This document shows positions 13,703-59,364 of a DNA stretch of 59,387 nucleotides, in pieces; the first letter of the stretch is position 1; each line of letters starts with the position of its first letter. The translations under genes were made by a program, and so were the position numbers. The stretch is from Rotaria socialis. Its lineage: Eukaryota. The notes under the pieces are model-generated. The model was not told the origin of the DNA, ran no database searches, and saw only the letters and a list, made by a program, of their open reading frames with translations. The stretch covers positions 62,001 to 121,387 of the forward strand of contig CAJNYD010000201.1 in assembly GCA_905331295.1 (NCBI GenBank). The letters run 5' to 3'.

Positions 13703-15744
13703 TGTATCAACGAATAAATGAATATAAGAATGAAGCGAAGAAGAAAATGTATGTTAATTGAACGGCATAGAACTCAACTTCAATCGACAAGACAAATGTC
13801 TATCGTTCTTTTTTCTTCTTCTTTCTTTGTATACTCGACCGAATAGCCTCAGCGCCTAATTTTTTCTCTCTTAAGAAATCAGTCAGTTGTTAATAGAAAA
13901 AAAAATTTTCTCGCATCGTATGATAATAAATGACATCGTTTCCTTAGTTTATTTAAGCAGTTAATGACCTGAATGCAAACGATTAGTCATGCGTTAGATC
14001 TTCTTAACGAATAAATGTAGTAACAAATAATAACATCTAACTGAGATAGAAAGTTTATGTGTATACTTCATTGAATATCATCTGATCAGCTGATAATTAA
14101 TCATCAAAGAAAGCAAGATTGATGTATTTGTAATTGAAAAATAAAAATAAAAATAACAGATTGTTCGTCTATACCGTTAGCTCTTTCCTCTTGCTCACAT
14201 TTGTACAAGTCTTTGTTATAGTATTTGTTTATGAATTCGATCATCTTAGTTTTTGAAAACTCAAGTAGAAACAGTGTAGTTTCTTCGCGATTGTTCAACA
14301 CATGAAATAGTGTAAAAGTTCTTTTTTTTTTTCGTTTGATTGATTCAAGTTGTTAAAAAAATTCTAACTGATAACACATCGAAAAGTTAGCAACGATTAT
14401 GAAAAATTAGCTTGTGGTTTCAGGAGATTTCTTCGCTAGAACAAAAGTTCAATAGTGGAAAATCTTCTTGCTAAATCAGTAGATTTGACAGCAGTATTTT
14501 CTATATGGATATTTTCATCTAAATATCTTATCAATCAAATGATAAACATAAAAAACAATTCGAGTCACATATGGCTATTCGTTAGTGTAATGAACAAAAT
14601 TTAGTTGTATAAAAAACATGCTTATATCTGTCAAAGATCTAGTTCGATATCATACTTATTCGACTGTCAACTAGTTATTTGTAGTTAATCGATAATGACG
14701 GCATTGATAAAACTTTCGATATATATGATGATTCAGTCTAGAAATCTAGAATTTACGAAACGAGGCCATGAGTTCGTAAGTGAATATAAGGAATGAGATG
14801 ATGCACATAATCTACGTGAATATCATCATTAATGCCGACGCTAGCTTGCACACTAGTGACGAATCTAGACGTTTATGATTGGTAACGATAAAGTGAAGAT
14901 CAGAGAAACTACTGTGGAGACTAGAAGTGTTCGTGATCATAAAAATATCTTGAGGGTTATCATGAGTGATATCAGCTGAGTCTTTTTTGCTAGGAAAATT
15001 ACAATCCTTTTTTCCGAAAATTAAACTATTATCCCTCAGTACTTTTTTCTCGAAAATCCACCACTGATTGTTCATGAAATAACAAATCACAATAGAAACT
15101 GGCAAGGTAAATGACGATATTGTTTGGCGGAATTCACTATGATATTAGCTATCCCAGATAAGTCGCATTTATTTAAAAACAAAAAGATTAGGAAATCATA
15201 ACCATGCTCGACAAAAAACAAACACACACACACATATATTTAATGTTATGATATACAAGAAAATTTGTAATTCTTTGAATAAGAAAAAAGTCAAATGAAT
15301 GTTAAATCTCGCACGAAGCTATTGATCGGTATGCTTATTTAAAATTTATTGGTTTTCAAATATAGCACAGATAGCGTGATATCTTAAGTAAACATATTAA
15401 AGTGGCATAGAATAAACGATCAATCAGTTGTTAAAATTTAGGCAGTATACTGAAATAAATTATGGTAAAATTTTTTTTGATTTGACTAAAACGAGAAATT
15501 CCTAATTTAAATGATAATGAAAAATAACTTTATCAATAAAATTTTCATTTTTAAATCATCGCTCATATAAGACTAGTCAGGTACTATTTGATAAAAAAAT
15601 GACATACAAATGTAACTGTATTACATAATAATGCAAGACACTGCAGAATGTTGTTTTCTTTTACAGCACACATGACCATGATTATAAAACAAATATGGTA
15701 TAGATAAAACATTTACATTTACTTTTTTTATTATATCTCATAGG

Positions 15745-17054
15745 ATGCAACTTTATCAGTTTATTACTCTTGTGAGTACTTTAACTTGTCCTTTATTGAC
15801 AAAAAGTGAGATCTCACCAGTTCTTATAAATAAATTCGAATTAGCTCATCCTGGCTTTTTAACGCTTCTTCGTACATGGACATTAAATTCAACATCATGG
15901 GGTTTATTTATTTCTTGTTTCAATGCAATTCCAGAAACTACAGACTCTGTTTACAGTGTACCTAATATAGGACAACAATTAACAACACAGATTATACCAA
16001 CACGTATAACCAGTCAAATAACATGGCCGAACGGTATCGTATCAGCAGATCCATTAGTAGAATATTCTATGATTGTTCCAAGTGGTTTTCTTGTGCCTGG
16101 TAAAACTAACGGAAATCTTTATTTCATCTCTGAAACTACTATAACACCGTTAGTACCAAGTGATAAAACAAATTGGTTCTATCATGATGCTGAATTCAAA
16201 GATATGGACGGAGATGGCTTTATTGACATAATAGCGGGACGTGCAAATGTTCCATTAATCGGTGCACCTAGAACTCAATTAATTTGGCTGAAAAATCCAG
16301 GAAATCGAACGATAACTGGTCCTTGGAAACTTAACTATTTACTATCGGATGGTGGACCAGAAATTCAAGTACAATTTGCCATAGTTGATTCCTTACAAGT
16401 ATGATCTGTTGGTGCTGAAAAAAATTTGAAAATTCTTTATTTTTATTATTTTAGGTTCTTTTTGCGAATTCATTTTTTGAAAGGAAACTTCAAATGTTTT
16501 GGTCTGATTCAGATCCATTTTGGAATGATACTACTAAATTACATGTACGTCATATTGACTATGAACCACTTCCATATGCATACGTGCAATTAACCGTAGA
16601 TCTTAATGGTGATAATAAACCTGATCTACTTGTTACTGTCAATGATGAATTTAATGGTTCACTCATTGCTTATGAACTTCCACCTTCAGGTGAAATTCGT
16701 ACGGGAAACTTCGTAAAACATATTCTTGCAAGTGGATTTAAACCACTAACACAAGCCAAAGGTCGAGGAGCACCAGGAGAAGGCATTGCAATTCAATTTT
16801 ATTCTCTTGCTATTCGGAAGAAACCAATTTTAATATTGTCTGGTGATGATGATGGTTGTGTCTATTTGTTAGAAGCGATTCATGATAATGATCCATCGAA
16901 TTGGGAATATTCAACAACAATAATTCATAAATCTGAAAAATCAACGATTGGTCAAGTTACTGTTGAAGACGTTGACAACGATGGATATCTAGAAATGTTT
17001 GTACCTGCTTATAATGAAAACATAGTATACATTTACCGATTGATGGAAAAATAA
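15745..17054 (+). CDS. Secreted FG-GAP/VCBS-repeat (beta-propeller-like) protein; exons 15745-16398 and 16455-17054
   Basis: Signal peptide and Ca-binding repeats DMDGDGFIDII, DLNGDNKPDLLV and DVDNDGYLEMFV. Intron 16399-16454 (GTATGA..TTTTAG) joins the ORFs in frame. Confidence 0.85.
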
Positions 17055-17270
17055 TAAAACAAGTCTTTTCGTATGATTTAGTTTTCATTTCTATTCGATA
17101 TTTTTACATCAATATCTAATTTAATTATAAGAATAAAAATATTTATTATATTTAAAGTTTTTTATGCACGAAAATGACTGAATATCACGTGGCAAACATC
17201 ATTTTTTGTAATGAAATTTCTTTTATTTGATAAAAATCTTAACTATGAAGAGTACACAAAAATGAAATTG

Positions 17271-20200
17271 CTATTTTATGTGATGCGCCTCGGATGATTT
17301 TGTTTCGAAGTAGAAGACTATTGTCGGATTTTTCCATGTTGTTGATGGTATTTTTGTATCAAAAACTCCATTCCAAGGAAATTTTAATGGAAGCTCAGTA
17401 CTATTGTTTGTTTTTATCGTTTTAAATGATTCGATTGTTACAGTTGAAAATGGACATGGGCCAAATATAGCTGTTGAACATTTATTTATGTTTTGTTTGG
17501 ACGATGAACATAATGAATGTTTATAATTTTCACAGAACTTTTCAAATTCATACTCATTCGTTTTCATTCGTTCAGCAAATTTGAATTTAAAGTCTAACAG
17601 TTCTTTTTCTGTTAAAGACGCTTTTGCGGGACATTGTTTAAGCACAATGAGTTGCTGTTTACAAGTTTTCTTAAAATCTTGTTTCATCTTTCTACTGTTT
17701 TTTGACATGTTTTTATTGTTAGAAAAACAAACTAGTGAAGTGCTTTTTCGAATTGATGTTGTTTGAGAATCAATATCATTTAGATTTAAGTTTTTACAAG
17801 TCATTTCTTCTTGATGTTTTAATATCATTAACGATCTCTTTTTTAATGAGCCGCTTATAGTACGATTATTATTCTGTTCAGCAAGATTATTGAATTCTTT
17901 TTCTATCGGATAATGCTTTCGTAAGGATAATAATAAATATGAATTTCGTAAAACTTCATTCAACATAGGGAAAATCGCTTTATTAACATCACCAGTATAT
18001 GTAAATGGTGCAATATTTAATGTTGTTTTAAAATTTTCTATTTTGTTTAACCATTGTTTGTAAGATAGGATTCCAATATTAAACCATACGCATTGCTTGA
18101 TTTTATCTTTTTTTTGTTGCTTCTCTGGACTATCTAGAGTTTGTAAATCTATCAAGAAAGAAAATATGAGAAATAAGTTGTAAAATCAATGGATACACAC
18201 AGCAATACCACTTATTTTCATACAAATACTTTCTGCATTGATTTTCTTTTGCATGAATAATATCTTGTATTTTTTCTGTCAGGTTGTTTTTATCATTGTC
18301 AGTTATTTTTCCTTTTTCTGATTTAGCTAAATTTTGAATATAATTTTCATACTTGACTTTGTTTTGGTCTGGTGTTAGTAGAAAGTCAAATTCTTTATTA
18401 GTTCCTACACATTTGATAGGACCATTCGCCTGTAAAACATTCGATTGATCAGATGCTTGCTTAAATGAGTGGATATAACTGTTTGCTATACATTGGAACT
18501 GAAATCAAAATTGATTAAACATCAATTGAAGATGGTGTTTTCTTTTTTCAATCATGTAGCTAAGTAACTTCATATGAAATCATTTTCAAATGATATCGAT
18601 TAAAAGTGAAGAGCGTAACATAAAAAAAAGGGTGGATCGAAGTGAATAGCTAGCTAGTTAAACAACGATGTTTTTTTTTTATCGAAAAATGGAAATTGGA
18701 CATCCAACTTTAAGACAAGAGAAAATATCTTACATGTTACATAAATCAACTGTTTGATCAGAACATGATGGAAAAAAAAAAGAATTTTGTACTCAATTTA
18801 TTTTATCTATGTTTATGGCAATACGTCCATGTACCACTAGACTTGATAGCTTTGTAGAGATTTTCAAATATATATACATATATCCAGTTTTCTTGCTTTT
18901 TAAAATTTGCTAGTCAACAGACGATTTGGCTGCGTTTCACTAAGATATAAAATGTAAGAAAAAATATCTTCTGTAAGAGAGAAAGTTTTATTATCGATTT
19001 ATTTCAACAGGAGAATGTAAGTAAAATACATTAGATGAATTTTAAGGCGACAAAATTTAGCCCACAAGTTACTTGAATGCTTATTAAAGATAGAAAAAAT
19101 AATATTTTCTTGCAGTTTATTAAAGACTCATATATCTTACAATGAATGATATGAATCTTGTTCAATTTAGAAAATTTTAAAAACAGCCCGTATTGAAATG
19201 CATTAAAATCTGTGATTAAGCCATAAAATTAAAGTTAAAAATGATGCGATAAATATTAATATTCAAATTTAACCTCGATTAATTATTCTCTTGATTTTAA
19301 CAATCAACTCAAGTAAATAAGTAGTTTTACATGATATGAAAAACTAATTTTCTATAATTCAAGTGAATTCGATATATTGCTTTCGTTTTGATAAATGTCA
19401 AACAAACTTACAAGTTTCAATAATAATTTATCATATTCTAAGTTAAAATGATTTTCTGATCCAAATAATTGAAAGTATGATTCTTTTTCAATTAACTTTT
19501 CTAACCATTCGATTGGTTCATAATTTTGAACTTTTACAGGAATAATGCATTTTCCTATTTGATTTGCATATTTTGCTTCTTGTTCACATAATTTATCATG
19601 AAAATAATTTTTACTTATGCAAAGAATAATACAATAAGATTTGTTTACCATTTCAAAATGTTCTTCATTGTTTCTTGATTGATTTAAATTTAACCATACA
19701 GAAAAACCTTCGTCAATAAGAAAATTAGCTAAACGTTGTGATACTATTGAATCATCTGGTGAATAACTCAACATAATAGTATAGTCAACAAATAATGTTT
19801 CAGTTGAAAATAATGATAATAAATTTGTTTTTTCTTGAGCTAATGTTTTTATCAAAGCATATTTTTGTTTAACTTCATAAACACTGTTTATCGGGCCATG
19901 TAATACAACTTTTTCATCGTTATCTAATTTAGGTAAAGTACATCTATCTATAGAATATTTATAAAAAGCATTGATCATGTCTTGATTCCAATTTTCAAAT
20001 CCATCTAAGTTTATTTTAAAAATTGATCGGTTTAAATAATTATTTATTCTTTTTTTACATTGCTTTAAATTATCTACATTTGAACATGCAAGAGTTATTT
20101 GAATAGCTAGAAAAATAGACAGAATATATTTAAATAGAATTTTTTAAACGATAAAACATAATTTGAACATAAAAAACTTACACTCTAGAAAAGTCAAATT

Positions 20201-23200
20201 AAAATTAAGAAAGAACCATAATTGTAGGAAGATAAAGATAAAGTCTTTGCTTTTTGGCACTCTATATTAGTCATCATAAAGTTTGTTAAATTTCTTGATT
20301 TGAATTAGAGACATGCACAGGACAACTTTTGCTGTCTTGTCGTGCTAGCACCCATGTCCAGGCGGGCAGCAGGACAGGGCGAAATTTGAACTTGCGTTCT
20401 ATCTCGTTCTGCCCTAGGCACGTCTCTGATTTGCATCAATTTTTATAAATGCACAAAAAGTTAAAAAAAGAAAATTAGTCCAAGATCAATGTACTAAAAT
20501 GCGAATATAGCTTCAATATTAACTTAGCTTAGCCTAGCTAATTTGATGTAGCCGATAGTGTGAAACATTTATATATATATATATACTCTCTCTCAGCTAA
20601 CGTCATGTAAACTTAGAGGAGGAGTCTTCCGTATAATGGAATATTTTATTGTTAATATCTGTAATCCAGTCATATACTTGTGTTGGTTAAATCTGAAAAG
20701 AACACATACACTGGCTACTACGATCAGTATTGTTTCTCACATTTAACTAGCGTAATCTCTCATTAGTCAATAATTGATATAATGAAGAAAAGAGTGGGAT
20801 TTTGCAAAATTTTGCCTTTAAATGTATCCTTATCATTTGTTCGAAAATGTATGTCAGTTTTACAATATTATTTTTTAAGATAAGTAATTTTCGGAAAATG
20901 TTTTGTGAAACACGATCTGAAAGGAGTGCTGAAGTATATAGGGTAGACATTTGGGCCCATCGCCCGCCCCCCCCCCTCCCACAGACCGTTACAGAGAAAT
21001 TAATGAATTCTTTTCTCTGTAACGGTCTGTGGCAGTTTCTAGAGACTCGATACATCATAGTACAGACCGTGACAGAGAAGCTTCACAGACTATCACTGAC
21101 CGTTATAGACGGATTCCAGAAAAAGAGTTTCATCGTGTTTCACATTTTAATCCCACAGGAATTGTACTAACAGCTTTTAACATCTAGTTTACATCATAAA
21201 GATTATAAACAGTCTTATTTCAAAATATATGATAATTTTTACGGTTCAGGAAAGTAATGATAATGTTTCAATTTATGAAATAATAAAATATGAGTTTATC
21301 AATACTGTTTTTATTATTCTGTATATATGTAATAATTACTATTGCAATCCTATCAATTCGATTGATCATTCAAATTGAACAGATTTCCTATAATTTGTTG
21401 GTTCTTAATATAAATTACGTAAAATCTTACTTGTTGCGGGACATAAAAAAATGTCACAACAATCTTTTCCTGTTTGTATTGTTTGAATAATATTTAAAAA
21501 TAGTTGATGTAACGTCTGCTGATCTGGTAATAAAACGAACGATACTTTTAATGAGACAACTTTTGCCAAATTAATTTGATTGATTGTTTCTTCAATCATT
21601 TCTTCTGCTAAAATTTGTTCGTGTTTACATGAGTCGGGAACTGCAAATGCAATTGTTTGTGTGGTTAAATTTGCTCGCTCACATTCCTTGATAACATAAC
21701 GAATCGATTTCGAAATATATAATTGAATTAAATCACTCAAATAGTCTTCATCGAATATTATAGTTGGTAATGACCAATTCACAAATAAAATTTTTCGGCA
21801 ATTTAAATGTCCACCAGTTGTTTCCGTAATAAATGGAATTGAACTCAATCTATTGTCTTGTTGATACGTTTGACTTGATGGTTGTTGTTCAATTATTTCA
21901 CCTGCTCGTTCAATTAAACTTTCTTTTAATCCGAATGATGTAGATGAAATAATAATAATGTCGACCTAGAATTATCATCAAAATTAACATTTCGATAAAT
22001 TTAAAACTTACGTTTTGTAAAGCGATGTCACCCATAACAATTTCAATTGAACCATTAGTTAATTTCGTTTGAGAAAAAACTAGTGGAGATGAACAAAATG
22101 ACTTTGATTGTTCTATTATTGATTTTGATACCAATGATGAATTTTTATTAGATCTTGGTATTCGATAAGATTTACTTTTGCTTTTTAATGCTAATTCACA
22201 ATAGCAACGGTTTTGTTGAGCAAGTTTTTTTATATGCAAATATAATTTTTCAGCAATATCATAATGTAATTCTTTACTTTTGAATGTACTTGTTTTCAAA
22301 TTAGATAATAAATTTAAGATAGAATTTTCTATTTTATTTTTTAAATAGTGTGGAGCATAAAATTGATTTTCTCGAATATTTAATTTTATATAATCATTAT
22401 GAAATTCTCTTGCAATATCATGTAATTGTTCGATACAAAAATTTGCAAGATATTCAAGCTGTTTTTTAAGAAAACAAAATCAATGAATATTTAAAGAAAA
22501 TAATAAATCATAAAAATATTGCTTTTTGTTTTGTTTTAGTTAATAATTAGTATAGTAGCATGGATAATGAATCTTATAAAATAAAAAGTGAATGAATCGT
22601 TCTCAACTGTTTACAAACAGTAAAATGAAAGAAATCACACATTGAATTCTGGATAATTCAAAATCTTTATAAATATATTTAACACGGAATCTATGATTAG
22701 GAAGCATTGAAAATGATGCAAATAAAATCAAGAAACAAATATTTTTATCTTGTTTTAGCAAAAGAAAAACTTCGAATGATTTCTGTATGTTAAGTAAAAA
22801 ATACTTTAACAAACGTGATGCTCATCAGTAACGTGTAAGTATCAATTGAATCGAATCTATGTTTTTGCTTAAAATATTAGATTCCTATCTAACAGGGAAG
22901 AGCTATAAATAAAACAGGGACATACTTGTTCAGATGAAATTTGGCCAAATTTATATTTTCTCAATCGATATTTATCAAATAAATTTTTGAACTTTTGAAA
23001 AACTTCATTCACAAGTTTTTGATAACCAAATATTTTAATGATATGTTTTGTTTTATTTCGATTTTTAATATATGGATTTCGTGTAACAGATATTAACATA
23101 TGATCTTGTTCATATTGATTCATATTTTCATTGAATTCTTCATCATATTGTTTTGTTGAACTAATTTCAAATTTTGATAAAATTTCATTTGTATGCAGAT

Positions 23201-25371
23201 GTATAAATTCAATAATTTGAGTTGATTTATTTGTTGAAACAAGAATATTTAGCTGTAAAATATGATTGTGAATAATATCATCAATATCAATAAGATTTTG
23301 AAAAGAATTAAATTTTTCATCATCGAAATAATAAACTTCTAAGATTTTACTATTCAATCTATTCCATTGGCATACAGTAAATAGATGAGTTTTATCATCT
23401 AAGATATTTTGAACAATACCAATTGATGTTATGTTAAATAGCCATGTTTTAACAATATTTTGATGATATATTTTCGATTTTATTGACTTGAATAAGTTTT
23501 TGACAAAATTTCGAACAACTCGATTTTGTTTTTTTCTTCCAATGAATTTTATTGTATAATCAAATACTGATTCTTCATCGTTTGAATGCACTTGTTTTAT
23601 TTCAATTTCAATTGCGAATGTTTCTTGTTTTATATAATTAATTAAATGTGAAATAAATTGAGGTTTTTTGAAAAATTCAATTTGAATTTCATCATCAATT
23701 AAGTAAGTTGTTTCACATATTGAAGTATTCGAGTTTTTCTTTGTAGATTTTTTAGAAACAATGTCCAGTTGGCGTTTATCCTGAGAAATAAAATAAATTC
23801 AATCGATGATATAGCAGAATCTGTATATAGTAGTAATAAAACAAATTTTGATCGATACTTCTTGTATGGCTTTAACCAGTCGATATATCTTTGAATTCTA
23901 TATGTGGTTGGATTTAATGATCGACTTGTTTTCAAAAAGTTCACCTTGCATCAAGTATATGGAATGAATACGAAACTCTCGCTATATATTACAACTTCAG
24001 TGAATAGTCTATGCTAAAATGTTCATCTTAATTTACCGAGATGTTAGATGGAGATTCAGCAAAAGAAAAGTGACTAATACTCATTTTGAACAATCGAAAT
24101 TCTGTATCTAATCCTCATTCTAATATAGTATGAATGCTCATGTTTTGTTCCATAATAATTGACAATGGCATTTCTTTTCTTAAATTTTTATTGTTGACGA
24201 TAAAGACAAAATGATGATGACTTCACTAATTCAGATAAATTTAAAAAACTGTTCATCTTTATTTTGAAATGCTTTTCTTTAGAGCAATAAAAACTGACCA
24301 AAAATAAACCAACTCAGACGATTAATACGACTTCTAGATGTTCCTGTAGAAAAATAAAGCAAAAACTCGGTATGATGAAACTCCATAGATAATTCAGCAA
24401 AAAAAAATGACCAAAATGCATAGCTTTTAGATGTTTTAGAAGTTACAGAAAGTATGAAAATCATCAATAAAAAACGAGATAAACTATAAAGAAAAACTGT
24501 GTTATCTTAGAACTATAAAATCTCATACTGGCATCTCATATATTTGTCTTAGTATTTGATCTTATTAACTCGTTCTTTTTTTTAAAGAATGAAATCCTGG
24601 AAATATAAGTCAAAATATCTCTAAATATGCGTCTGAAGAAAATACTGATCTTGTGAACAACTAATGACTTGTTTTAAAGTAAAGATCGAATAATGATTAA
24701 TGTTCTAAGTAGTTTAGAGCATATTTTAACCAAACTTCATATAATGAGGCGATTATGACTGTAAAAAAGCTATCATCAATATTCAGTGCCTGTTGAATTC
24801 CTTTTCAATTCAAAATACTGAATGGAAGATTATCGATAACTAGAAAACAGGAACAATGTGTCTTGATAAAAATCTCTTCTAAAATAAATTTCTAACTTTT
24901 ATTTAGTAATTCATCATTCCCAATATTTACCGCATTGAAATCTGTTCTATGAACCATAGTTGATGGAACGAATTCAGATGAAACATTGTCAACTCTAAAT
25001 AACATTAAAACATATTAAAATCGAGATAATCTTCATCGAAAATTTTCTTCCTCAATATGATTATTCTGATTTTTTTGTTGTATCTCCATCTTCAATTGCA
25101 TTAATTTTGTTTTAAATCTACTTGTTGCCCCAATAGTCGATTTTTCTATCGATCCATCTGCGTTGATTTCCAAAATGAGTTGCGTTATATCAGCATCGGT
25201 TAGTTTCATTAGAGATAACCCGTCTATGTTCCTATCTAACACAATAAGAAAAGAGATTTACCATTAATGTGTAGTGCTATAGAAATGACTACCTTTGAAT
25301 ATTTTCGCCTGCTTTTTAAAACCATTTGCTTTCAACCAATCAGTAACCTTCTTCACTGTCCAATTTGCCAT
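17271..25371 (-). CDS. SAM - KH-like repeats - Macro - TIR multidomain protein, copy A. Predicted exons 25371-25293, 25235-25052(?), 24994-24931, 23780-22926, 22458-22012, 21965-21431, 20106-19412, 18498-18201, 18148-17271
   Basis: SAM: MANWTVKKVTDWLKANGFKKQAKIFKDRNIDGLSLMKLTDADITQL. Macro: IEIVMGDIALQNVDIII..LIERAG..ETTGGHLNCRKILFV..TIAFAV. TIR_2: IMLSYSPDD..LANFLIDEGFSVWL..IILCISKNYFHDKLCEQEAKYA..IIPVKV..WL. Splice phases are consistent, except that the exon 2 donor reads GG instead of GT. The gene is colinear with the plus-strand paralogue. Confidence 0.78.
20306..20428. mobile_element. hAT-type MITE (123 bp) in an intron of TIR gene A
   Basis: TIR TAGAGACATGC versus reverse complement of the right end CAGAGACGTGC. 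Flanking 8-bp target-site duplication atttgaat / atttgcat (7/8 match). Confidence 0.72.
20979..21032. repeat. Perfect 21-bp inverted repeat (hairpin) with adjacent direct copies of the arm
   Basis: CCACAGACCGTTACAGAGAAA, a 12-nt spacer, then TTTCTCTGTAACGGTCTGTGG. It is preceded by a C-run, and related units ACAGACCGTGACAGAGAA (about 21062) and GACCGTTATAGA (about 21098) follow. Confidence 0.85.
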
Positions 25372-28264
25372 GAACTGCAAAATTAAGCATAGAATACGGT
25401 CACTGTCTTCAAAAAAAAAGACTATTGAACACTTTCAATGAATGAATGCTCTACAAAAAGTTCTTCACTTTGTTTTCAGCTCATATTAAGTCTATAAGCA
25501 TTTTTGACTGAGACTAGTACTTTTTTTTATGCAACCTTCGATCCAGTTTCGGATATATTTGGAAAATCTTAGATTAGAGCTTTGTTGCGAACTTTTACTC
25601 ATTGATAGAACAAATAATCAATGCAATATCCTTAACTTTTTCAATCAAAAATGATAGTATATTTCGTCACGATATTGAACGTTTAAAAACTAATTATTTG
25701 CCAGAAAGCAATGAGAAAAAAAAGAGTTTACTTGCATATTTATTATATTAATGTCATAGAAAAAATCGATGGCTTGGTTTTTTTGTGAAATATCGTTATT
25801 TTACTTATTTTATAAGATTTCACGAAATATTTCAAAATATAGATTATGAAACAACTGTTTGTTCCCCTGTGAACGATTCATAGGAGTTACTAGAAATCAT
25901 CCGTTGGGTAATTCTTTATTGTTTATCGATTCTCGCAATTTCATGTGTGAACGTTTTGTTTAGAATAAATCTAGATTAAATCAAAAATTGTATTGCGTGA
26001 CATAATTTTTTTTAATTTAGCGTTCAGGTATGATTTTTTTCTTTTGCAAACTTCCAATTTATGTTATACTAGTCTGTTTAGAATTCAGTATATCTCAGGA
26101 CTATTTAACTTACGTAATCAATCTGTATTGACTGCCGTCACTCGCATTCAGTGATTTCACACGAAGGATAAATTTCTACAGTGACATTCAATTTTCGCCC
26201 TGTCTTTTCTCGATAGTTGTTCACTGTCTAATGCCATTTTCTCAAAGAAAAGTAACAACTCAAGTACATAGAGAAAGAAAAGAAAAAAATCTCTGAGGCA
26301 AAATTCATTTTCTTTAATTGTCTTAGCACAAGGAATAGTAACTGTCGTATAACTTTGGTAAGTTTTGACTTTGTAATAATAATTAATAACATAACAGTTG
26401 TCTATAATAAAAAAAAGTATATCCCTCTAATAAACACTGCCATCGTTTTTATGGCTTTTGAAGATTTTTCTTTTTTCTGGAACGTTAAGACAAATCATAT
26501 TTGTTTCAACGTAAATAGTTTCAAGATCTAACTTCATGATTATGCAATCATCGTTTATCAGTGTTATTTTTGGATAATTATAGAAAGATTTGTTTTTTTT
26601 TGCTATTTTCTATTGTCCAATAGAAATAATTAATGGCGACAAAAGAGAATATTTACGATAGTAAGTTTCATCAGTTTTTTTTTCTTACTCATAAGATAAT
26701 ACTCGATTATATAAGTTTCAATACGATGATAGATATTTCGAAAATAAATCAAGAATATTCATTCTTATTACCGACTGAAATCCGATCACAAATATTACTT
26801 CTGAAAAAGAATAATCGGTATTCTCTAGGAACAGCTTTCCTCTATTCTTGTTTTCTGCTTCGACAGGACTTTCAAATTTCCTTTTCTTTTTTTTCTATTT
26901 AACAAAATTTACTATTACCAGACACTAGATTCTATTCGTATCGCGATTTCTCCAGTGTGAGATGGCTCTAAGTATGTTTTAACAAAAACAAAATCGTCGA
27001 TTATTAATGCGGTAAAATTGATTGATGTTAACCAAATTCATTTTTTCATTAATTGAAGTTTAAAAGAAAAATTAGGAAAAGGCTGGCATACCAACAATAT
27101 CGATAGAAAAATAATAATCTTTTCGACGGTTGTAATAGTTTGATTTCTTTTTAATATAAAAAGAATTGTATGTTGTTTTTTCGAACTAAAAATTAATGTA
27201 AAATTCGGACTAATGTTGGGAAAACGTTTTGATTGTCGATAATATTTATTTGGTAACAGGTAGCACTTCCAGATGAGTATTGCATGATCAGAATGCATCG
27301 CAAGACACAGCCAAGAATATCATGTCTAGATTCTAGAGTATAAATTTCGACAAATTTCATTTACACAAAAATCTAAAGGACTAACGTTACTTTTCTTTCT
27401 ATTTCACATTTTTACCAAACTAATATTTGAACAGAAAGAAAATTAAAAATAAATAATTTTCTCACGTAGAATAATAGTAAAAAATAAAATACTTCTACAA
27501 TGATGAAAGGGTTGCCATAGAAAACGGAATTCATGATCACGTTAAACTCAAAGTTTGAAAAAGTGAAGTCGTGACTTGAACAATCGTATGAATCGAAGCA
27601 ATCAAGTTATAATGGTATTTTTTAGCATTACTGCATACTGAGAATTTCTTGTAATAAAGAGAATGTAAAATGTTGAACTTTATGGGCCTATATCATCGTT
27701 CAATCGAAAAGAAAGTTCAGGTCGATGTAATATTCAACAATTAAGCAATGAATTACAACATTTTTTTAAAGACTTCCAGATGGATTATTGTTGACAAAAA
27801 AATATTTATTAATTATAAATAGGTACTTTATCGAAATATTTATATTTATGTAAAGACAATCGAAACGACTTTTTCGTCGGTCTACTTTGTTGCTATCGTT
27901 TTCTTTCGCAAAGTCTTCACGAGAATTTTCATTCTTGACTTTCTCACGGCCAGGATCACAAAACATGAGTATTTAGAGCATTATTAACTACTAGATTTCT
28001 ATATTACATTTCTCTATAATTGGAAGGAAACTGGTGAACTGATATAATCTGAAATGTTACTCATGATTTTTTTCCAAACCAACTAGAGTTATAATACACT
28101 CTGGAGAGTACTACTATCTATTCAATTCATAATAATAATTGACTTATCATGAAGATTAGTTGACAAGTTTTAAAACTAGGTGGCATATTTGTCGCACTAC
28201 TATTTAAGTTATCCCTTTTATCTAGACTATGTAATATGCAATCACAATCTATTTAGACACATCA

Positions 28265-31200
28265 ATGGCTAATTGGACAGTCGATCAAGTTGGAAACTGG
28301 CTAAGAACCAATAATTTAGAGAGATATATCGAAAACTTCAAAAGTAAGAAATACTCTCATTGATTTCTTGGTCATGATTTAGTTATACATATGTACAATA
28401 GATGAAGATATCGATGGTATTGCTCTGATCGGTTTAAATGAAAATGATATTTTAAAATTATTATCTACAATCGATGAAGATGGAACAATAAAGAACTCTA
28501 CAATGAGAACACAGCGTAAATTTAAGGCAGCATTAGAACAGTATAGAAAGTTTGTAACACAGGAGAGAAAGAAACTTGGGAGAAGACGGTAATTCTAATC
28601 GTCATTTCTTGTCGTGAAATTTTCTTTCTTTTTTAGTTCAATAGAAAATAAAGAGCTTGATGCAAGTATACACGATGGTACAAAAAAGTAAATAAGAAAA
28701 GAAAAAGGAATATTCGGTAATTCTCTAAAAATCTTTGATTTTTATTACTCAGTGTATTGATGAAACCTTCAAGAAATATATTTCATACAATCGATAATGT
28801 AGGAACATACTCAAGATTATATACTGTTGAACCAATGAATATTAGTATGAAATTCTTCACCAGTGAATCAATTAGTTCATACTTAACAAAATATTATCTA
28901 AAAAAGTATAACGTTAGATGTTATATACCAATGCAACATCAATTTCATACACAAGTTTCACTATCCATTAAATTATCGGGAATCAAAGAGAATGTCAAAA
29001 GTGTTCACCATGATCTGCAATCATTATTTGAAACAATTAAAACAAAAATTTTCAATGATGAAGATAAAGATAAAAAAAGTAAAAGAAAAACGGAAATTAT
29101 TTTCATCACTATTTGTCTCTGGCTTGCGAAAATAAATTTTCATTTGTTTTTAGTTGTGCGGTGGTCTCGATATATCTATTCAGATTCTATTCTTACAGTT
29201 TTACAAAAAATCTTTGTCGATAAGAAAAAATTAACAGTCTGGGAAAAAACAAGTATATTATCCGGATTCTACATCGTTCATTATACTAGTGGCCAACATA
29301 TGTTTAGTGTTTCAGAAGAATTTATTAATCAAACACTTAATAATGAGATATCTTATGTTAAAGATATTGTTATAGAGAATATGGAAAGTATTCAACCGAA
29401 ATTTCGAAAAGAATTAAAAGAATTAATTAATGAAAAAAAACAACATCAACTACAAAATCCAACAATGTCTATTATTTATTGTCAATATCCTTCTCAAACG
29501 GATATGAAAATAAGCTTTTTTGGATTAAGAAATCATGTTGACCTTGCTAAAAAGCAGATTAAACTGTTGATTAACAAACATCGAATGAGAACAATATGGA
29601 TTGGACTTGATTCAAAACAAGTATGAAAAAGATTAGTTAGCCCGTTACTTAAAGGTTTCTTATACATATTTCGATATTCTAGATAAGGTAGTTATATTTT
29701 TAAAGTTAACCAACTGATTCTGTTCGAATTTTTTCGATTTCCAAATAATATACAACTGATATATTTGAAATTTGCGCCACAATTAGAGCATCTCAAATGT
29801 GTAATGAATGACTCGGAAAAAAAACGTTTTTTGTACAAATTTTCTGGCATTTTCTCGTAGAATCCGTAACTACATGTTAAACTACATCAGATAAACCCCA
29901 AGGAAATAGTTCCTGTTTCTAGTTGTGTTTGATGGTATTTGAAATGTTTTTGAAAATGCCTCGAACTTTGTTTCAAACGTCTTGTTTGCTTTTCTTTCAT
30001 AAGACAAATCTAAAATCAGCATATTAGCATCCATCATTTCATCAATTTAGATACAAAATTTACATAAACGAAAACTATCAATAGCATCGTTAAAAAGTAT
30101 TCCTAAATATCTATGATTGCAAGTTTACCGGATTGGATTATATTCTCAATGAGCAGAAAGTCGAGTAATTTAATAATATTCGTCTGACTATTGATACGAT
30201 TGAAATCAAAATTTTTACATAAAATATTTCGATTCAATGATAGAACAGTTTTATTTCTTGATTATTTTCTCATCAGATGATCACATAATTACCAACCATA
30301 GTTCGCAAATTGAAGATAAGATTTGTGTATATGATTCAAATCAAAATAGCTTCAGTATTTTTTCATTTTTAATATGAATTTGAAACTCATTAACGTTATC
30401 ATTAGAGATACTGATGGTCACTGCCCTTTGGCCAAATGTTTTTAAAATAAGATCCGACAAAGAATGTTCTAAGAGGTCACGATTTTCTGCCATTTGATGC
30501 GACGCTTTGAAATGAAATTTTTCTTGTGAAATATAAACATCGCAAGAATTACTCCCACTAAAACTTTGTACATAAAAAATAATGTTTTCTAACAGACGCA
30601 ACTACATCATCTATTGATTTCGATTCTGTGTTTGACCAATGATTTCATCTTTACTTTATTCATCCGATCGATTGATCGTTAGCAACAAGCTTAGATTTTA
30701 CAGATAAGGTTGTGAGCATATTCTATTGAAGATAATTCTTACACTATTCAGAATTTTTCATTTACTTTGAAAAATATTTTCAGAAATTTGAAGAGAATTC
30801 TCAACAAATCTGTTAGATATAAAAATTGTTTTAATTATACATCAACTAATCTTTGGGTTTTAGCGTGACTTACTAGTAGATAACTATATGCATGAATTAA
30901 AAAATGTAGAATTCAATTATAAAGATGATAATCTTAAAATTAATATTCGTGAAAATATAATTACTGCTCCACAATATTTAATTATGAAAATAAAACAATT
31001 AGTTCAATCAATGATTTCTCCAACAATTACTCTGATTTATCGACACATTAAAAATTCTTGTACATTTACAGAAAAAGATCATTCGAAATTAAAAAATCTT
31101 GCTGAAAGTTATTTTTGTGAAATTGATAAAATCAATATAGAAACAAAGAAAGAACTTCTATTATTACCTAAAGGACAGGCAAAATCAACGTCAAAATTTA

Positions 31201-34200
31201 TTATTAAAGAATCAAGCCAATTCTATTCTTCCTTGTCAATATGGAGAAAACTCGCTGTATCAAATCATACAATAGAGATTCATAAATCATATTATTTTAA
31301 AGTTAAGTGAATAAATCAATTATTTTTATTTTATTATTATTTTACGATTTTCTAGGTTGATGTTACAATTATATCAACCGTAGTAGACGCCATTAAAGAA
31401 AAAATTGACCCAAAATATGGAAATGGTTATTTTGAATCTGATACTGGTAAAAGAGTTTTATTTATTGATTGGTCACCATGCATTTTACAAAAAGACAATC
31501 ATCAGATAAATGAATCAATAAAAAATTTCATTTCTACATCAATTCAACAAATAGATAGACTCTGTACAAATGTTGTCGAAACAATTGGATTCGCAACAAC
31601 AGATTGGGAAAACTATAACAATAGAAAACAATTAATAGAAAATATTCTGCATGAAATGATAAAGCAACTTTCAATTCGCGACTTTTCTAATCTTTCATGG
31701 AAAATAGTATTTCTATTTAATGATGAACAAAATGATCTTTTTAATGAATTTTCACAAGCTATTTTAGCATTACAAACAGATAGAGATAATTATGAACAAT
31801 TTTTTTATCCAATATCAAGTACGTCACAATTGAAATTAAGAAAATAAAGTTAAAGGAAATATAGCGTATAAAACAAAGATCTGATCTCACCGTAGATATT
31901 TTGTTCTAACATTAAAATAAAACTTAATCAAATGTCAAAAGAAAACATTAAAAAGTATCATAGTTTCATTTCCTTGGCTCCTATTGAATATTGTGAACAG
32001 ATTTCGATGATGAAACTGACAAAAAATAACTTTTTTCAAACTTAAACATATTTCATATTAGCCACACAGTAATTATGCATCTCACTATGACATATGTCAT
32101 ACTCTATGAAGGAGAAGTGATGATATTAAGAAGTTTTTTTCGGTCTTTGATTGACACTTGCTTCATAATTAAGAGGATGTATTAAGTTTTCACATGTATT
32201 TTTCAACAGTATTCAGATTTCTTTTCTACTATTAGAAGCATTCGAGCGTAAATTCTCGTATGTATTTTAGCTAGTAACATATCTATGAAAATTAAAAACA
32301 ATACTAATGTAACTTAAAAAATCTTGTTTAGTCAGTCGAGAGTCATGTTCGTGCTGTCCTAAAAAGTTTCCCAGATCTCTTGAAGTCACATGTGCTTCGT
32401 AGAACGAAAAGAAAACACGAAGATGTTATTATGTAGGAAAAGAAAAGACATCTTTCTTATATCCCCAATAGGACAAAAAACGTATTGAGACAATCGATAA
32501 ATAACTAAGTGTGGATTCATTTTCATAACTCTCACATCAGATAAGGAGATTCGGGTTAAAACATGCGAGTTTCACATGCCAATCCGTAATAAATGTTCTC
32601 TGAGCATATTGTGAAAGAAATTAGAAAATATTAAAATAAAAGAATTCATCAGTAGTCGAATGCAGAAGCACAAATAAGTTTTAATTCAAATTATTCAATA
32701 TTCTCACCAACGTCAAATAAAAAACATCAAACTAGTAGCAGCGGATCACTAAGTAGATAAGGAAATAATTGAGCAAGATGGTGACGATATTCATTTAAAA
32801 ATTAAGATACTTGCACTGAAAATAGAAGACAGATGCGCGGTATATTTAGTGAAGGAATTGAGAAAAGTTGGGGCCTGTCACCTTTCTCAAAATTTTCCGA
32901 TTTCAAACGTCATATCTCATTGTTTTTCCTGTTGTCTCGAACCCCAACATCGAATACCTCAGTATTTTCGAGACAATTCTGATTGTTTTATGGAATGGAG
33001 CAAACAAGACTTGTCGGGAGTCGGAACCACCTTGCAGGGCTCTGTTAATATCAAATAAAATCAAACACTATTATGTTTAAGTTTGATATTACGGACTCTT
33101 CATTTCTTTAATGGATTTAACTTGAATTAAATTCAAATGAAAATGTTTAAGATCACTATAACACTCTATTTTAAACTAGAAACTGATTACTTAGCCATTG
33201 AACATAACAAACTTTCTTTTATATAGCAAACAACCATTGATTGGAACTTAAAAACCTATCTTACTTCGTTTTCTCTTATCTAATTTTAGCTGCTTCCATT
33301 ATATTAAAAACGTCAAGCAATTCAAATATTTCCAAGTGTAAAAGATCAATCAATGATTATATGAACAAACATGTACTTACAAAAATCAAATTGAACTATC
33401 CGTTCTATGCTGAGATATGGAATAAAGACATGATTAATTCATATTACAAATATTGCCTTGAAAATTTTGTTTTGCCACAGATTATTCAAATCGATTTACA
33501 AAACGATCAACAGCAATCTTTAGATCTAATAGGGCCAATTTGTGCTGTTAATCAAGCTGTACAAAAATATGAGTTGATGTCAGATATTGAACGGCAACGT
33601 ATATTAATTTATACTGAAATATCAGAATCGATCGAACAATGCCCTATAAATCCAACTTCAGTATTAAACACAACAACTGATTCTTCCAATATTTTATTAA
33701 GTTGTTGTTTTGCTGATAATATCCTGTCACGCCACCTTACCAATCGTTTGATTGAGGAAGGCTATCAAGTATCACTTGACTATTCTGATAAGACATCGTC
33801 AAGTATCGTCTCAAAAATCAAGAAAACAGATATAATTGTTGTTTGCTTTAGTTCTAATTATTCAGAAAATGCTAATTGTACGAAAGCACTACATGCAATA
33901 AAATCGTCCGAAAAGAAATATATACCGATTATGTTAACGCGAAGTTCATTGAATCAAGAAGAGAATTGGCTTCAAGTAATGAACACCGAAGAGTTATATT
34001 ATGAATCATTTAATGAAGAAATAAAATTCAAGTTAAACGAAGATTTAGCCTTAGACTACGATAAATTATTGATTGAATTAGTAAGTTTTCTTTTTGACGT
34101 ACAGAAGAATGAGTTTCAATCGATTCATTCGTCTACCGTTTATTATGACAGATTCACTTTCAAGAAAGCATTTAGTTAAAGTACAAACTATACATTAAAT

Positions 34201-37200
34201 GCAATATCTTATTTTATTTTTGCTAAATATTTGTTTTCAGGAACTATGGAATTATTTTTGCGTATTAAAAATTGTACTAAATTAATAGCCACGTTAACTA
34301 AAACTTTGTTGAGTTTTTGTAAAATCAAGAATATTTCAATTGATGTCGGCACTTCATCTGCTTTAACATTTGAGAATACATCGACAGTAAAAGGAAGTTT
34401 AGTATTTTGTTGAAAATCTCTTGATAGGAATTCTCTGAAAATTTGTATGCCCATTAAAATCATTCATTAGGTTGTCATAAAAGAAATCAGCTTCATAGCT
34501 TTGTAGATTGATGTACTCATCATTGTCAAATCGAGAAATGCAGCGAGATCTTTCCGAATCTTAACTTATCTCTTTTGAATCATCTAACACATACTAAATT
34601 TTCTATCAACAATCTATATATATATACATACATATATATATAATGTTCAGTGTGTGTCTGTGTCGGGTCAAAGGTTAAAGGTCAAAGATATTTAGAATTT
34701 TCTAGACCTTTCTGGAACCATATGAAGTCAAGTAGACTTCTAGAAAATTCCATGACTTTCTGGAATGTTCTAAAATATCCTAGAATTTTCTCTGAACTAC
34801 GACACAATCAAGTGAAACGATGAAGGTTAAACTGAGTCGTGTTATGTTACCAGAAAATTTTAGAAAGGCGTAAACTTTTACCGAATATCCTAGGATCACC
34901 TAAAATTATCCTATCCTGACTGCACGGACTCTATCGGCAATTAACAAAGAGAATGAACATGGAGATAATTGCGATTATTCATTAGACACTAACGAAGATT
35001 TCATGAGCAATATGATACTATGAAATGAAATATTCTTTACTTTATGCATGTATATTTATAATCAGACTCAAATATTATACTTTAAAAGAAGAGAACTGGA
35101 TTCTTTTTTGAAATCTAAGTTGGACCTGGAGGAAACTAAATTTACGAACCAAAACGTGGTAGAATTCGAGTTCAGTCTGATAGGCTCTATCGTGCATACT
35201 GCACGGGACCTCGCTAGTATTCATAAAATACTAAGTTCTCAATGTTCTCGAATTCTTCACATTTTCAAACGCTGCAGTAAACTAAAAAAGATTTTTATAT
35301 TCATAGCTACATTATGCAAAACCTTGTGCAGTTGGTGCAATTTACATAATATCTAATAAAAACATTTTAAACAATGAGGAGCAAAAAGAAAAACATGATC
35401 AGTCAAATATAGTCACAACAATTACGCCAGAACAAAGTCAAGAACAAGAACAAATTTATCAAAAACGTATTGAACAAATTTTAGAGCGAGATCAAATTTC
35501 ACCAGATGAAATAGCAAACTTAATGCATTGTTTAAACATGATTCTTGAAGATTGTGCAAACGGAAAATGTTCAACTTCGTTAAACGAACAAGAACTAGGA
35601 CAATCTATTAGAAAATCTAGACGCATAACAACGGAAAACGAAGAAAAAATGCAACTTTATCAGAATGATTTTGAACAGAAGCAAGACAATGATCAAAATA
35701 AGCATGAAGAAAGTGAGTAGCACTTGTTCGCACGAATAATTTGATGAAATCATATTTTCTGCCAAGTATTTACTATTTAGGAGTTTATTGAAATCTTGAA
35801 ACATATTAGAATCTATTGTATAATCCGATAGAAACAACTAAGCTTTCAAAATAAAGTCATTAAGAAAAAAAGAGAACAATAATGTGTACGGGCAATTTAT
35901 CATAGTAAGGAGATTTCCAAAATAGTTGTTTTCACTAATTTTACATCTAGACAGAATTAGAATGCCTGTAAAATTAGATGTTGCAATGAACTCAAGGACA
36001 AACTGCTTTTTAATGATACTATACGTCCAGCAAAATATTGAATTCTGAGCACTTCTTTATTGCTAATAAAACATTTCCTAGTAAAATTCTACATTCGACT
36101 TCATGCTGTTCAATTTTTAGAAGTCTACGAGACTAGACTATATTTAAATGATCAATTAGTCGCATTAGAAAATTTTCGCGTAGTAATGCGAGTTGTATTA
36201 GCATTTCAATGTCCAACATGATATTCATGCAAAAAATAACAAGAAGGAATTATACTTTGCCGTTTTGTTCATAGATAAACTTGATGATAACTGGAATGTT
36301 TTAAAAAACTCAACCAGAACAGATACTTCTGTTCAGAAATATTCATACATGAAATGAAAGGCAATGTTTTACTTGTGATTCTCAGAACTCTTAAGAAACA
36401 AGTATCTGTTCTGTTTAAAACTTTCAAAAACATTAAACAGATTAACACCAGAGCAAACCAATTTAGAAGAGGTTCTTTTAATGTTTTTCTTTTCAGGTGT
36501 GACAAAGAATGTTTCAACTTATTTCAGTGCTTTTCTATCAATTGTTCAACATTGGTTAGAAAAAGCATCAAATGGTTCTGTCACTAAAGGCAATTTACCA
36601 CCGTTTAGTTTAACTGGCGATTTTAATGATGCTATATTTCGAACATCTTCGAAAGACAAAACTCCATGGTGGGTAACAAGTGCGAGCCAATATGATTTTA
36701 ATTGTTCATCGCTTGAGTTTCCCTTAGTTTCACGGTTAATGACTAGTTCGTTTTGTGATGGCGATGAAGCACATAGTTATTTCCGGAATTTGATCAATAG
36801 AGACATTCAATTTCTAGAATATAAAGAAAAGCAACATCAAATGAAGTCTAAGCGAGAACAAAAAAATCAAAATAGTATATTTAGTAGTGGTCCACATCAG
36901 TCGCATTTCAACACAAACATTAAAAAAGGTACTATTGTCTGGGATATTATTGAAGATAAAGAATTTCTACAAGAATATGAAAAAAGAAAATCGGGAAAGC
37001 TAATAAGAAATCCAAATAGACTCTCGATTGGTTGGAACCGCTTGTTGGATCGATCAGTACAATTAGTAGCAGACATTAAAGATGGTAAAATTAACATGGC
37101 ATCGAACGAGGTACAAGGCAAAATTGGCAAAGCACTCAAAACAATGAAAGAAATCAGAAAACTTAATGTGTTAGATGATGTAAATAATGAACTTTGGAGA

Positions 37201-37299
37201 AAAAAACGTTTTCCTCTTTGGCGACAACAATTTATTGAAATGAAAATATCCAATACGATTCAATGGCAAGAATTCTGTGCAGCACAAGAAAATCAGTAA
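28265..37299 (+). CDS. SAM - KH-like repeats - degenerate Macro - pseudo-TIR multidomain protein, copy B. Predicted exons 28265-28343, 28402-28588, 28637-28687, 28753-29078, 29154-29620, 30864-31301, 31356-31818, 33290-34080, 35307-35712, 36497-37299
   Basis: SAM: MANWTVDQVGNWLRTNNLERYIENFKNEDIDGIALIGLNENDILKL. Blocks shared with copy A include KINIREN..APQYL, RVLFIDWS, TIGFA, WNKDMINSYYKYC and PPFSLTGDFNDAIF. TIR: ILLSCCFADNILSRHLTNRLIEEGYQVSLD..IVVCFSSNYSENANCTKAL..YIPIML..WL. All junctions are GT-AG with consistent phases. Confidence 0.82.
34613..35217 (+). mobile_element. Non-autonomous Helitron in an intron of TIR gene B
   Basis: 5' A|TC followed by a (TA)n tract; internal TTCTAGA/TTCTGGA repeats; subterminal hairpin CGTGCA-TAC-TGCACG (35191-35205); and a 3' CTAG|T end. 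It is inserted between A and T with no TSD. Confidence 0.8.
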
Positions 37300-59271: not shown

Positions 59272-59364
59272 ACTACCAATAAGTTTCTTAGTTATCTTCT
59301 TTTTTTTTCAATTTCAAAACGTTTAATTCGTCTATTTCTTTATAATTCATATACACAATCAACA

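What the first reader, a model, noticed from the sequence alone, without database searches (positions are those of the whole stretch)
19412..23780. PARP14/PARP9-like chassis with the ADP-ribosyltransferase domain replaced by TIR
Seen: repeated 'hydrophobic strand-G-x3-V-helix' units (IKFIGRKKQNRVV, IKIFGYQKLVNEV, VLHGPINSVYEV; in copy B IKLSGIKENVKSV, ISFFGLRNHVDLA, LDLIGPICAVNQA) flank a Macro domain. The TIR follows the last unit directly. Known: PARP14 and PARP9 have degenerate KH domains with Macro domains inserted in a split KH, then one more KH, then the catalytic region. Inference: domain shuffling swapped one NAD+-consuming effector (ART) for another (TIR) on an antiviral-type scaffold.
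Basis: inference. Interest (0 to 1): 0.8.

Follow-up and report, generated by a model that had tools for sequence, protein, structure and literature searches.

The report
Rotifer PARP14 scaffold ending in TIR
Bdelloid rotifers carry a gene family in which the body of a PARP14-type immune enzyme ends in a TIR domain instead of its ADP-ribosylating end; here two copies sit head-to-head, one keeping and one lacking the catalytic glutamate, so they likely act as an NAD-cleaving enzyme and its inactive partner.

Summary
The stretch is exons 4-7 of a 9-exon bdelloid rotifer gene (A, 1344 aa). A paralogue (B, 1336 aa, 25% identical) faces away from it 2.9 kb upstream. A profile of the KH/Macro body alone retrieves bdelloid proteins ending either in TIR or in WWE-PARP, never both. 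The PARP-ending class aligns colinearly with vertebrate PARP14. On a Macro-KH tree rooted on PARP14, TIR-ending proteins form one clade (100/99). The Macro has lost its diphosphate loop (0 of 23, against 36 of 36 PARP-ending rows). A keeps the TIR glutamate; B has lost it. A-type/B-type neighbours recur in five more cases in Adineta and Rotaria, judged from locus tags or contig lengths, and B lacks the glutamate in all six pairs. Enzyme activity, expression of A, A-B binding and an antiviral role are untested. My paper searches found no description, but three earlier notes of this scan report the same family in other genomes.

The parts
17271..25371 (-). Gene A, 9 exons (25371-25293, 25235-25052, 24994-24931, 23780-22926, 22458-22012, 21965-21431, 20106-19412, 18498-18201, 18148-17271), 1344 aa: SAM-KHx4-split KH(Macro)-KH-TIR-tail
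   Evidence: Open frame with one terminal stop; aa 89-1344 are 99.6% identical to database protein P0001. Intron 2 needs a non-canonical GG donor.
25081..25371 (-). SAM domain of A (exons 1-2)
   Evidence: 60-71% identical to the first 78 aa of 5 orthologues, which carry Pfam SAM_1/SAM_2
25050..25051 (-). GG in place of GT at the donor of intron 2 (57 nt) of A
   Evidence: Chosen because it gives a 57-nt intron and the right phase into exon 3; no RNA shows the splice
22162..23720 (-). KH-like units 1-4 and first half of split unit 5 of A
   Evidence: Secondary structure of AF2 models; unit 1 matches type I KH; array homologous to bdelloid PARP-ending class, probability 99.9; unit 2 has pLDDT under 50 in the full model
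21471..22092 (-). Single degenerate macrodomain of A; GDI motif kept, diphosphate loop replaced
   Evidence: fold and profile; motifs
19811..21452 (-). Second half of split KH and last KH (equivalent of PARP14 KH7b-KH8) of A
   Evidence: colinear with PARP14 in profile alignment; 133-bit match to P0025 ends here
19412..19789 (-). TIR of A, catalytic-position glutamate present (codon within 19588-19577)
   Evidence: Pfam TIR_2 E 8e-14; aligned to the Roq1 TIR glutamate
17274..18498 (-). C-terminal ~390-aa tail of A, predicted mostly helical or disordered, with a conserved Pro-Phe...Gly-Asp..Asn motif
   Evidence: Conserved in the 21 family rows aligned; no Pfam hit; no atlas hit for the P0027 tail; no likeness to WWE-ART
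25372..28264 (.). 2,893-bp region between the two start codons; candidate shared promoter
   Evidence: function inferred only
28265..37299 (+). Gene B, 10 exons (28265-28343, 28402-28588, 28637-28687, 28753-29078, 29154-29620, 30864-31301, 31356-31818, 33290-34080, 35307-35712, 36497-37299), 1336 aa, same architecture
   Evidence: Open frame, all GT-AG; 25% identical to A; five introns at identical aligned positions and phases and a sixth one column off; nearest relative A. vaga I4U23_011938, 45.5%
31227..31778 (+). Macro of B, further eroded: no GD motif, core deletions, no diphosphate loop
33679..34080 (+). TIR of B, alanine at the catalytic position (33877-33888)
   Evidence: Pfam TIR_2 E 2e-8

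Best explanation
These are two diverged copies of a bdelloid gene that shares its KH-Macro-KH body with PARP14-like enzymes but begins with SAM and ends in TIR, and they likely work as a pair in which A is an NAD+-cleaving TIR enzyme and the glutamate-less B is its sensor or brake. Shown here: the architecture, the shared body, the single TIR clade, the head-to-head layout in this window and the asymmetric loss of the glutamate. Inferred, origin: a duplicated one-macro PARP14-like gene lost WWE-ART and its N-terminal part, gained SAM and TIR plus a tail once, duplicated into A and B, and the A-B unit was then copied several times. Inferred, mechanism: A and B are co-expressed from the shared upstream region and co-assemble through SAM and KH-like surfaces. 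A trigger, probably a pathogen product, rearranges or releases the assembly so that A's TIRs cluster and turn NAD+ into cADPR/ADP-ribose. The Macro probably no longer binds ADP-ribose in the usual way and serves as an interaction surface or decoy. I put the origin at about 0.9, A being catalytic at about 0.6, and the paired mechanism at about 0.45.
For: Chassis-only profile against 1.84 billion proteins: 336 hits, best 150 listed. Of these 150, 40 carry TIR and/or the tail, 16 carry WWE/ART, 0 both, 94 neither (85 of those under 400 aa). Pfam on 59 chosen from the 150, mostly the longest: 24 TIR, 12 PARP, none both, no RING or DTC. Homology to P0025 stops at the last KH. The PARP-ending profile aligns from macro 3 to the C-terminus of 13 of 15 non-rotifer PARP14-like proteins in one piece. 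Tree of 59 rows: 23 TIR rows one clade 100/99, inside the bdelloid PARP class 98/99; unchanged after dropping 4 long outgroup rows. CxxE in 8 of 13 A-type and 0 of 10 B-type rows. Pairs: A. vaga tags 011937/011938, 012163/012164, 015440/015438; A. steineri P0028/P0056 with equal contig length and accessions 14-18 apart; Rotaria sp. Silwood2 P0017/P0105 with equal longest-contig length. Three A clades match three B clades pair by pair; the fourth pair (012163/012164) has only one B row. B lacks the glutamate in 6 of 6 pairs, A keeps it in 5 of 6. Rotifer TIRs made cADPR and a Rotaria sordida TIR depleted NAD+ in E. coli (bioRxiv 10.64898/2026.04.20.719644; which proteins is not stated in the parts I read). 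KH-like domains without GXXG bind partners in PARP9/DTX3L/PARP14 (PMC11080071).
Against: No activity, binding or co-expression was shown. Five of 13 A-type rows lack the glutamate, including the A. steineri orthologue of A (P0011) and the A partner of one pair (P0028), and 2 of 4 A-type metagenome exons have Gln there. Three of 10 B-type rows do have Glu at that column, without the Cys. A's TIR has Asn where many active TIRs have Asp after strand B (recalled). Orientation is known only in this window; adjacency elsewhere rests on tags, accessions and contig lengths, and one tag lies between 015438 and 015440. Nesting of the TIR clade inside the PARP class is not forced: AU p 0.23 and 0.058. 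The upstream KH array matches vertebrate PARP14 only weakly (probability 2.9, E 0.016). The SAM of A depends on a GG donor. Bdelloid TIR genes were mostly not induced by a fungal pathogen (bioRxiv 10.1101/2021.09.04.458992).
Confidence: 0.55

Rival explanations
1. Same origin, but both proteins are non-enzymatic scaffolds: the TIRs act as adaptors that recruit other TIR proteins, such as the ARM-TIR gene next door, and the glutamate is a relic.
For: Glutamate in only 20 of 37 family TIRs; lost in A-type members of several lineages; an ARM-TIR gene with a related TIR (70 bits) follows B directly.
Against: CxxE is kept in A-type members of Rotaria and Adineta and in four A subclades while no B-type row keeps it.
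Confidence: 0.25
2. A and B are independent immune genes that stay adjacent only because they arose by local inverted duplication; B is drifting or specialised on its own.
For: No binding evidence; local duplicates are adjacent by default; the pairs are copies of one ancestral pair, so they are not independent cases.
Against: The genes are only 25% identical yet remain neighbours in two genera; all six pairs are A+B; both frames are intact.
Confidence: 0.15
3. The body comes from another KH-Macro-KH scaffold, such as a macro-bearing DTX3L-like gene, or the TIR was inserted ahead of a decayed ART rather than replacing it.
For: Earlier-branching DTX3L orthologues carry a macrodomain (bioRxiv 10.64898/2026.04.23.720386, section 5); I had no DTX3L rows in the tree.
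Against: No RING/DTC among 59 scanned relatives; nearest non-TIR relatives are WWE-PARP proteins at up to 202 bits; the tail shows no likeness to WWE-ART (probability 0.2).
Confidence: 0.05

Closest known systems
PARP14 (macro-PARPs PARP9, PARP14, PARP15; architecture as in PMC10450202)
   Same: In-line type I KH-like array, Macro inside a split KH, one more KH with a long helix leading to the effector; colinear profile match over macro3-KH7b-KH8.
   Different: SAM instead of RRMs; five KH units up to the split one by my count instead of seven; one Macro without its diphosphate loop instead of three; TIR plus unknown tail instead of WWE-ART.
Bdelloid one-macro PARP14-like proteins (e.g. R. socialis P0052, P0210, P0216; A. 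vaga I4U23_012418)
   Same: Whole KH-Macro-KH body homologous (probability 99.9 for the KH array; up to 202 bits).
   Different: They keep the Macro loop (23 of 23) and WWE-ART (2 of the 23 rows are cut before a Pfam PARP hit), have long N-termini, some with a weak PARP12-type CCCH hit, and none of 16 has this SAM.
PARP9-DTX3L pair
   Same: Bidirectional gene pair built on KH-like scaffolds, one partner catalytically inactive; shows that this scaffold already takes a second effector (RING-DTC).
   Different: Here the two genes are paralogues of one architecture, the effector is TIR, and no complex is shown.
SARM1 / TIR-1 (architecture recalled)
   Same: SAM and TIR in one chain; SAM-driven clustering is a ready route to TIR activation.
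   Different: One SAM, far from the TIR; no ARM domain; the TIR is closer to the neighbouring ARM-TIR gene (70 bits) than to any PDB TIR (22 bits at most).
Plant paired TIR-NLRs such as RPS4/RRS1 (recalled)
   Same: Head-to-head pair with unequal catalytic state.
   Different: No NB-ARC or LRR; an analogy, not homology beyond the TIR.

Membership tests
PARP14-type macro-PARP | Array of type I KH-like domains before a split KH | tested here: met
   Unit 1 by fold search; units 2-4 by predicted strand/helix order only; homologous to the bdelloid PARP class
PARP14-type macro-PARP | Macro inserted in a split KH | tested here: met
   Strand-helix-strand, Macro, then strand-helix; second half colinear with PARP14 KH7b. 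Pairing of the halves in one sheet was not inspected (no coordinates).
PARP14-type macro-PARP | One further KH with a long helix before the effector | tested here: met
   E667-671, H679-691, E695-698, E704-708, H710-736
PARP14-type macro-PARP | C-terminal WWE and ART domains | tested here: not met
   No Pfam PARP or WWE in 11 family proteins; TIR region and tail unlike WWE-ART
PARP14-type macro-PARP | N-terminal RRMs and three Macros | tested here: not met
   SAM at the N-terminus, one Macro
ADP-ribose-binding macrodomain | Macro fold | tested here: met
   Z 19.5, rmsd 2.9, 170 aligned to PARP14 4d86
ADP-ribose-binding macrodomain | Glycine-rich diphosphate loop (role recalled) | tested here: not met
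   0 of 23 TIR rows, 23 of 23 bdelloid PARP rows, 13 of 13 PARP14 rows
Canonical RNA-binding KH | GXXG loop | tested here: not met
   Pattern found in 0 of 17 TIR-class arrays, but also 0 of 19 bdelloid PARP and 0 of 8 PARP14 arrays
Catalytic TIR (NADase/cADPR synthase) | Glutamate in helix C | tested here: met
   Met in A, not met in B
Catalytic TIR (NADase/cADPR synthase) | NAD+ cleavage | not testable with these tools
   Needs an assay
SARM1/TIR-1 | ARM-SAM-SAM-TIR order (recalled) | tested here: not met
   One SAM, no ARM hit, KH/Macro between SAM and TIR
Paired sensor/executor immune genes | Conserved head-to-head linkage | tested here: inconclusive
   Head-to-head in the window; neighbours in 5 more cases by tag or contig length, orientation unknown; metagenome contigs too short
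Paired sensor/executor immune genes | Physical complex and functional dependence | not tested

The most novel reading that the evidence does not exclude
Bdelloid rotifers turned a PARP14-like gene into an obligate two-gene immune switch: a glutamate-less partner with a decoy Macro holds or triggers a SAM-clustered TIR enzyme that makes a cADPR-type signal. It would be an animal counterpart of plant paired TIR receptors, built on an ADP-ribosylation scaffold, and copied as a unit at least four times.
Probability: 0.3. Interest if true: 0.85.

Novelty: new variant of a known kind. Interest (0 to 1): 0.62.

Why it matters
The PARP14/PARP9/DTX3L scaffold is known with two outputs, ADP-ribosylation and ubiquitylation. 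This family adds a third, TIR, and with a traceable donor: the PARP-ending relatives are in the same species. It shows the KH-Macro-KH body is a reusable platform, and gives a natural test of what that body senses. What activates non-TLR animal TIR enzymes is an open question now that many are reported to make cADPR; a conserved active/inactive gene pair with a ready E. coli assay makes it directly testable. Little is known about rotifer immunity.

Tried and rejected
No whole genome was held for the window, so 'same genome' was tested at species level through named database proteins. Pfam missed the Macro and KH units in the window; only sub-threshold KH_PARP14 hits appeared (E 0.039 in B, 0.049 in P0024, 6.7e-5 in P0026). 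Foldseek on the exon-4 model gave no hit under E 0.001; KH domains had the best probability and target TM-score but ranked 27 and 49. The atlas gave leads only for the body (0.78-0.82, Macro/PARP14 clusters) and nothing usable for the tail. No RNA holder was listed for gene A; the one run laid (X1, contigs) covers no exon junction of A or B among the pieces shown, which is no evidence either way. Six metagenome loci were 1.2-2.3 kb, too short for pairs. The tail as a decayed ART was rejected. A Macro-only tree against macroH2A, MacroD or GDAP2 was not built, as I had no such sequences; by structure these families are tied. Bacterial origin of the TIR was not tested with a tree. A look-up of A. 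vaga tags in the supplements of PMC10809525 searched one small file and found nothing. No long repeats of note.
Full report
Setting. The window is AT-rich (GC 0.24-0.37) with short GT-AG introns. The last KH-TIR exon matches a Rotaria socialis protein at 99%, so this is a bdelloid rotifer. No whole genome was held.

Gene models. Gene A lies on the minus strand in 9 exons from 25371 to 17271 (1344 aa). Gene B lies on the plus strand in 10 exons from 28265 to 37299 (1336 aa). Both frames are open. They are 25% identical over about 1,110 residues and share five intron positions and phases exactly and a sixth within one column. The start codons are 2,893 bp apart and face away from each other. The finding covers exons 4-7 of A. 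Intron 2 of A needs a GG donor; the database proteins from R. socialis and R. magnacalcarata that I read (P0001, P0002, P0004, P0006, P0007) lack the SAM, four of them starting at an ATG inside that intron. The SAM exons are 60-71% identical to five orthologues, so they do not look decayed.

Domains. An AF2 model of the R. magnacalcarata orthologue P0002 (17-row alignment, mean pLDDT 55.7) gives four KH-type units (unit 2 under pLDDT 50), a half unit, a Macro, the closing strand and helix, one more KH ending in a 27-residue helix, the TIR, and a low-confidence tail. The Macro matches macrodomains at Z about 19 and the TIR matches ThsB, TIR-1, MyD88 and SARM1 TIRs at Z 8.6-8.8. A model of exon 4 alone (pLDDT 69) gave no Foldseek hit under E 0.001; with VIA, 16 of the top 20 rows are titled KH, covering mainly unit 1, best Z 7.6, a level that the tool warns is common. 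This order is the one described for PARP9/10/14: Macros inside a split KH, then one more KH with a long helix (PMC10450202, passages read).

Shared body, two endings. A search with the A. vaga body alone found 20 family proteins and one outsider, P0025, with Macro and WWE (E 4e-21). The family profile matches it at 133 bits up to the end of the last KH and no further. A profile of five body-only stretches found 336 proteins; of the 150 listed, 40 carry TIR and/or the tail, 16 WWE/ART, none both, 94 neither. All 30 proteins looked up by name are bdelloid; the other listed hits and the 186 unlisted ones are unnamed, so the range outside bdelloids is not settled. TIR-ending members were named from five Rotaria and three Adineta species; PARP-ending ones also from Didymodactylos. 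The PARP-ending class finds vertebrate and invertebrate PARP14 as next relatives and aligns with 13 of 15 of them from macro 3 to the end in one piece. The TIR-class Macro-KH-KH profile matches the PARP14 profile at probability 94.9 over 237 columns. The upstream array matches the bdelloid PARP class at 99.9 but vertebrate PARP14 only at 2.9 (reversed controls 0.2-1.2).

Direction. I built a tree of the Macro-to-last-KH block from 23 TIR, 23 bdelloid PARP and 13 other PARP14 rows, chosen by me from the longer hits; near-duplicates, fragments and 2 outgroup rows without a one-piece match were left out. The TIR rows form one clade (100/99) and group with three PARP rows (98/99); the same holds without four long outgroup rows. 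Holding all bdelloid PARP rows together is not rejected (AU p 0.23 and 0.058). Either way the outgroup ends in ART, so ART is the ancestral ending and TIR was gained once. The tail has no likeness to WWE-ART, so this is replacement, not insertion. The last KH and the TIR share one exon here and in 5 of 6 metagenome loci (the sixth is cut by its contig end), so no intron marks the fusion point. The TIR is nearer the ARM-TIR gene in this window (70 bits) than any PDB TIR (22 bits), which suggests a native source.

Signature residues. The glycine-rich Macro loop is absent in 23 of 23 TIR rows and present in all 36 PARP rows; the GD motif survives in 12 of 23 TIR rows, and B-type Macros also carry core deletions. 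The TIR glutamate is in 20 of 37 rows. As CxxE it is in 8 of 13 A-type and 0 of 10 B-type rows; 3 B-type rows have Glu without the Cys. No GXXG pattern was found in any array, PARP14 included; such KH-like domains bind partners in PARP9/DTX3L/PARP14 (PMC11080071, passages), though PARP14 KH fragments also bound RNA (PMC10450202).

Pairing. A. vaga has three A/B neighbour sets by locus tag (011937/011938, 012163/012164, 015440/015438). A. steineri P0028/P0056 and Rotaria sp. Silwood2 P0017/P0105 share contig lengths. On a tree of 29 KH-TIR-tail rows three A clades match three B clades pair by pair, and window B joins 011938 (97/96) while window A joins the clade of 011937 (96/98) (two rows were cut imprecisely before trimming). 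B lacks the glutamate in all six pairs; A keeps it in five. Orientation is known only here.

Mechanism. I infer that A is the enzyme and B its sensor or brake, assembled through SAM and KH-like surfaces (SAM-driven activation of SARM1 and plant paired receptors are recalled, not looked up). Rotifer TIRs are reported to make cADPR, and one from R. sordida depleted NAD+ (bioRxiv 10.64898/2026.04.20.719644; abstract, introduction, first results section, section 8 and passages read). Its main text has no mention of macro or PARP; its supplementary domain table, which I could not see, may list these proteins. Against an inducible antifungal role, few of the 120-133 Adineta TIR genes changed under a fungal pathogen and most went down (bioRxiv 10.1101/2021.09.04.458992, passages). 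Nothing here shows an antiviral role.

Novelty. Searches for bdelloid + TIR domain, PARP14 + KH domain + TIR + macrodomain (38), bdelloid + PARP (81), TIR + NADase + rotifer (105), and macrodomain + TIR domain + KH domains + invertebrate (128) listed no paper that describes this architecture; most were seen as listings only, and subscription journals are not covered. The PARP14 review PMC13224862 has no 'TIR' in its main text. Effector change on this scaffold has a precedent in macro-bearing DTX3L (bioRxiv 10.64898/2026.04.23.720386, section 5 read). Three earlier notes of this scan describe the same family and pairing in other genomes; I saw them after reaching these results. They are not independent support, and one is marked as partly fallen without saying which part. 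Verdict: real, a new variant of the macro-PARP scaffold, not a PARP14 member; interest 0.62.

Noticed in passing
window 34114-34601: Two exact-match contigs of run X1 (which shows spliced GT-AG joints elsewhere) lie in modelled intron 8 of gene B, just after the TIR exon; read-through meets a stop at 34177-34179. Possibly a short B isoform ending after the TIR, or pre-mRNA; strand unknown.
   Followed up: partly
window 25050-25051 (-): Non-canonical GG splice donor that decides whether gene A carries its SAM; database models from two sister species lack the SAM.
   Followed up: partly
window 37834-41838 (+): A third TIR gene (ARM-like repeats then TIR_2, E 5e-18, glutamate present) directly after gene B; its TIR scores 70 bits on the family profile.
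   Followed up: partly
window 7683-8561 (-): ADP-ribosylglycohydrolase gene (Pfam E 1e-58), 9 kb from gene A; any link is untested.
   Followed up: no
P0210, P0216, P0219, P0180: Bdelloid PARP14-like proteins have one Macro and, in 4 of 8 scanned, a sub-threshold PARP12-type CCCH hit at the N-terminus: a possible PARP12/PARP14 hybrid.
   Followed up: partly
P0096, P0101, P0138, P0075, P0147, P0151: Other front ends on Macro/PARP modules among the hits: USP24/USP9-type ARM, PDZ, LIM and TPR.
   Followed up: no
window 1-630, 5077-6760 (+): Bacterial-type alpha-L-rhamnosidase end and a multicopper oxidase; candidates for horizontally acquired genes, untested.
   Followed up: no
window 12699-13753 (-), 15688-17054 (+), 46359-47252 (+): Frizzled-domain gene, FG-GAP repeat gene (poly-A seen at 17267 in X1) and an RRM gene.
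   Followed up: no
window 20976-21035: 29-bp inverted repeat (90%) in intron 6 of gene A, in a stretch with diverged matches in X1; possibly a small mobile element.
   Followed up: no
window 58474-59307 (-): 277-codon frame that looks by eye like a retrotransposon gag fragment; no Pfam hit.
   Followed up: no
window 42846-43427 (+): Spliced transcript in X1 (depth 37) in a region without a long ORF in my lists.
   Followed up: no
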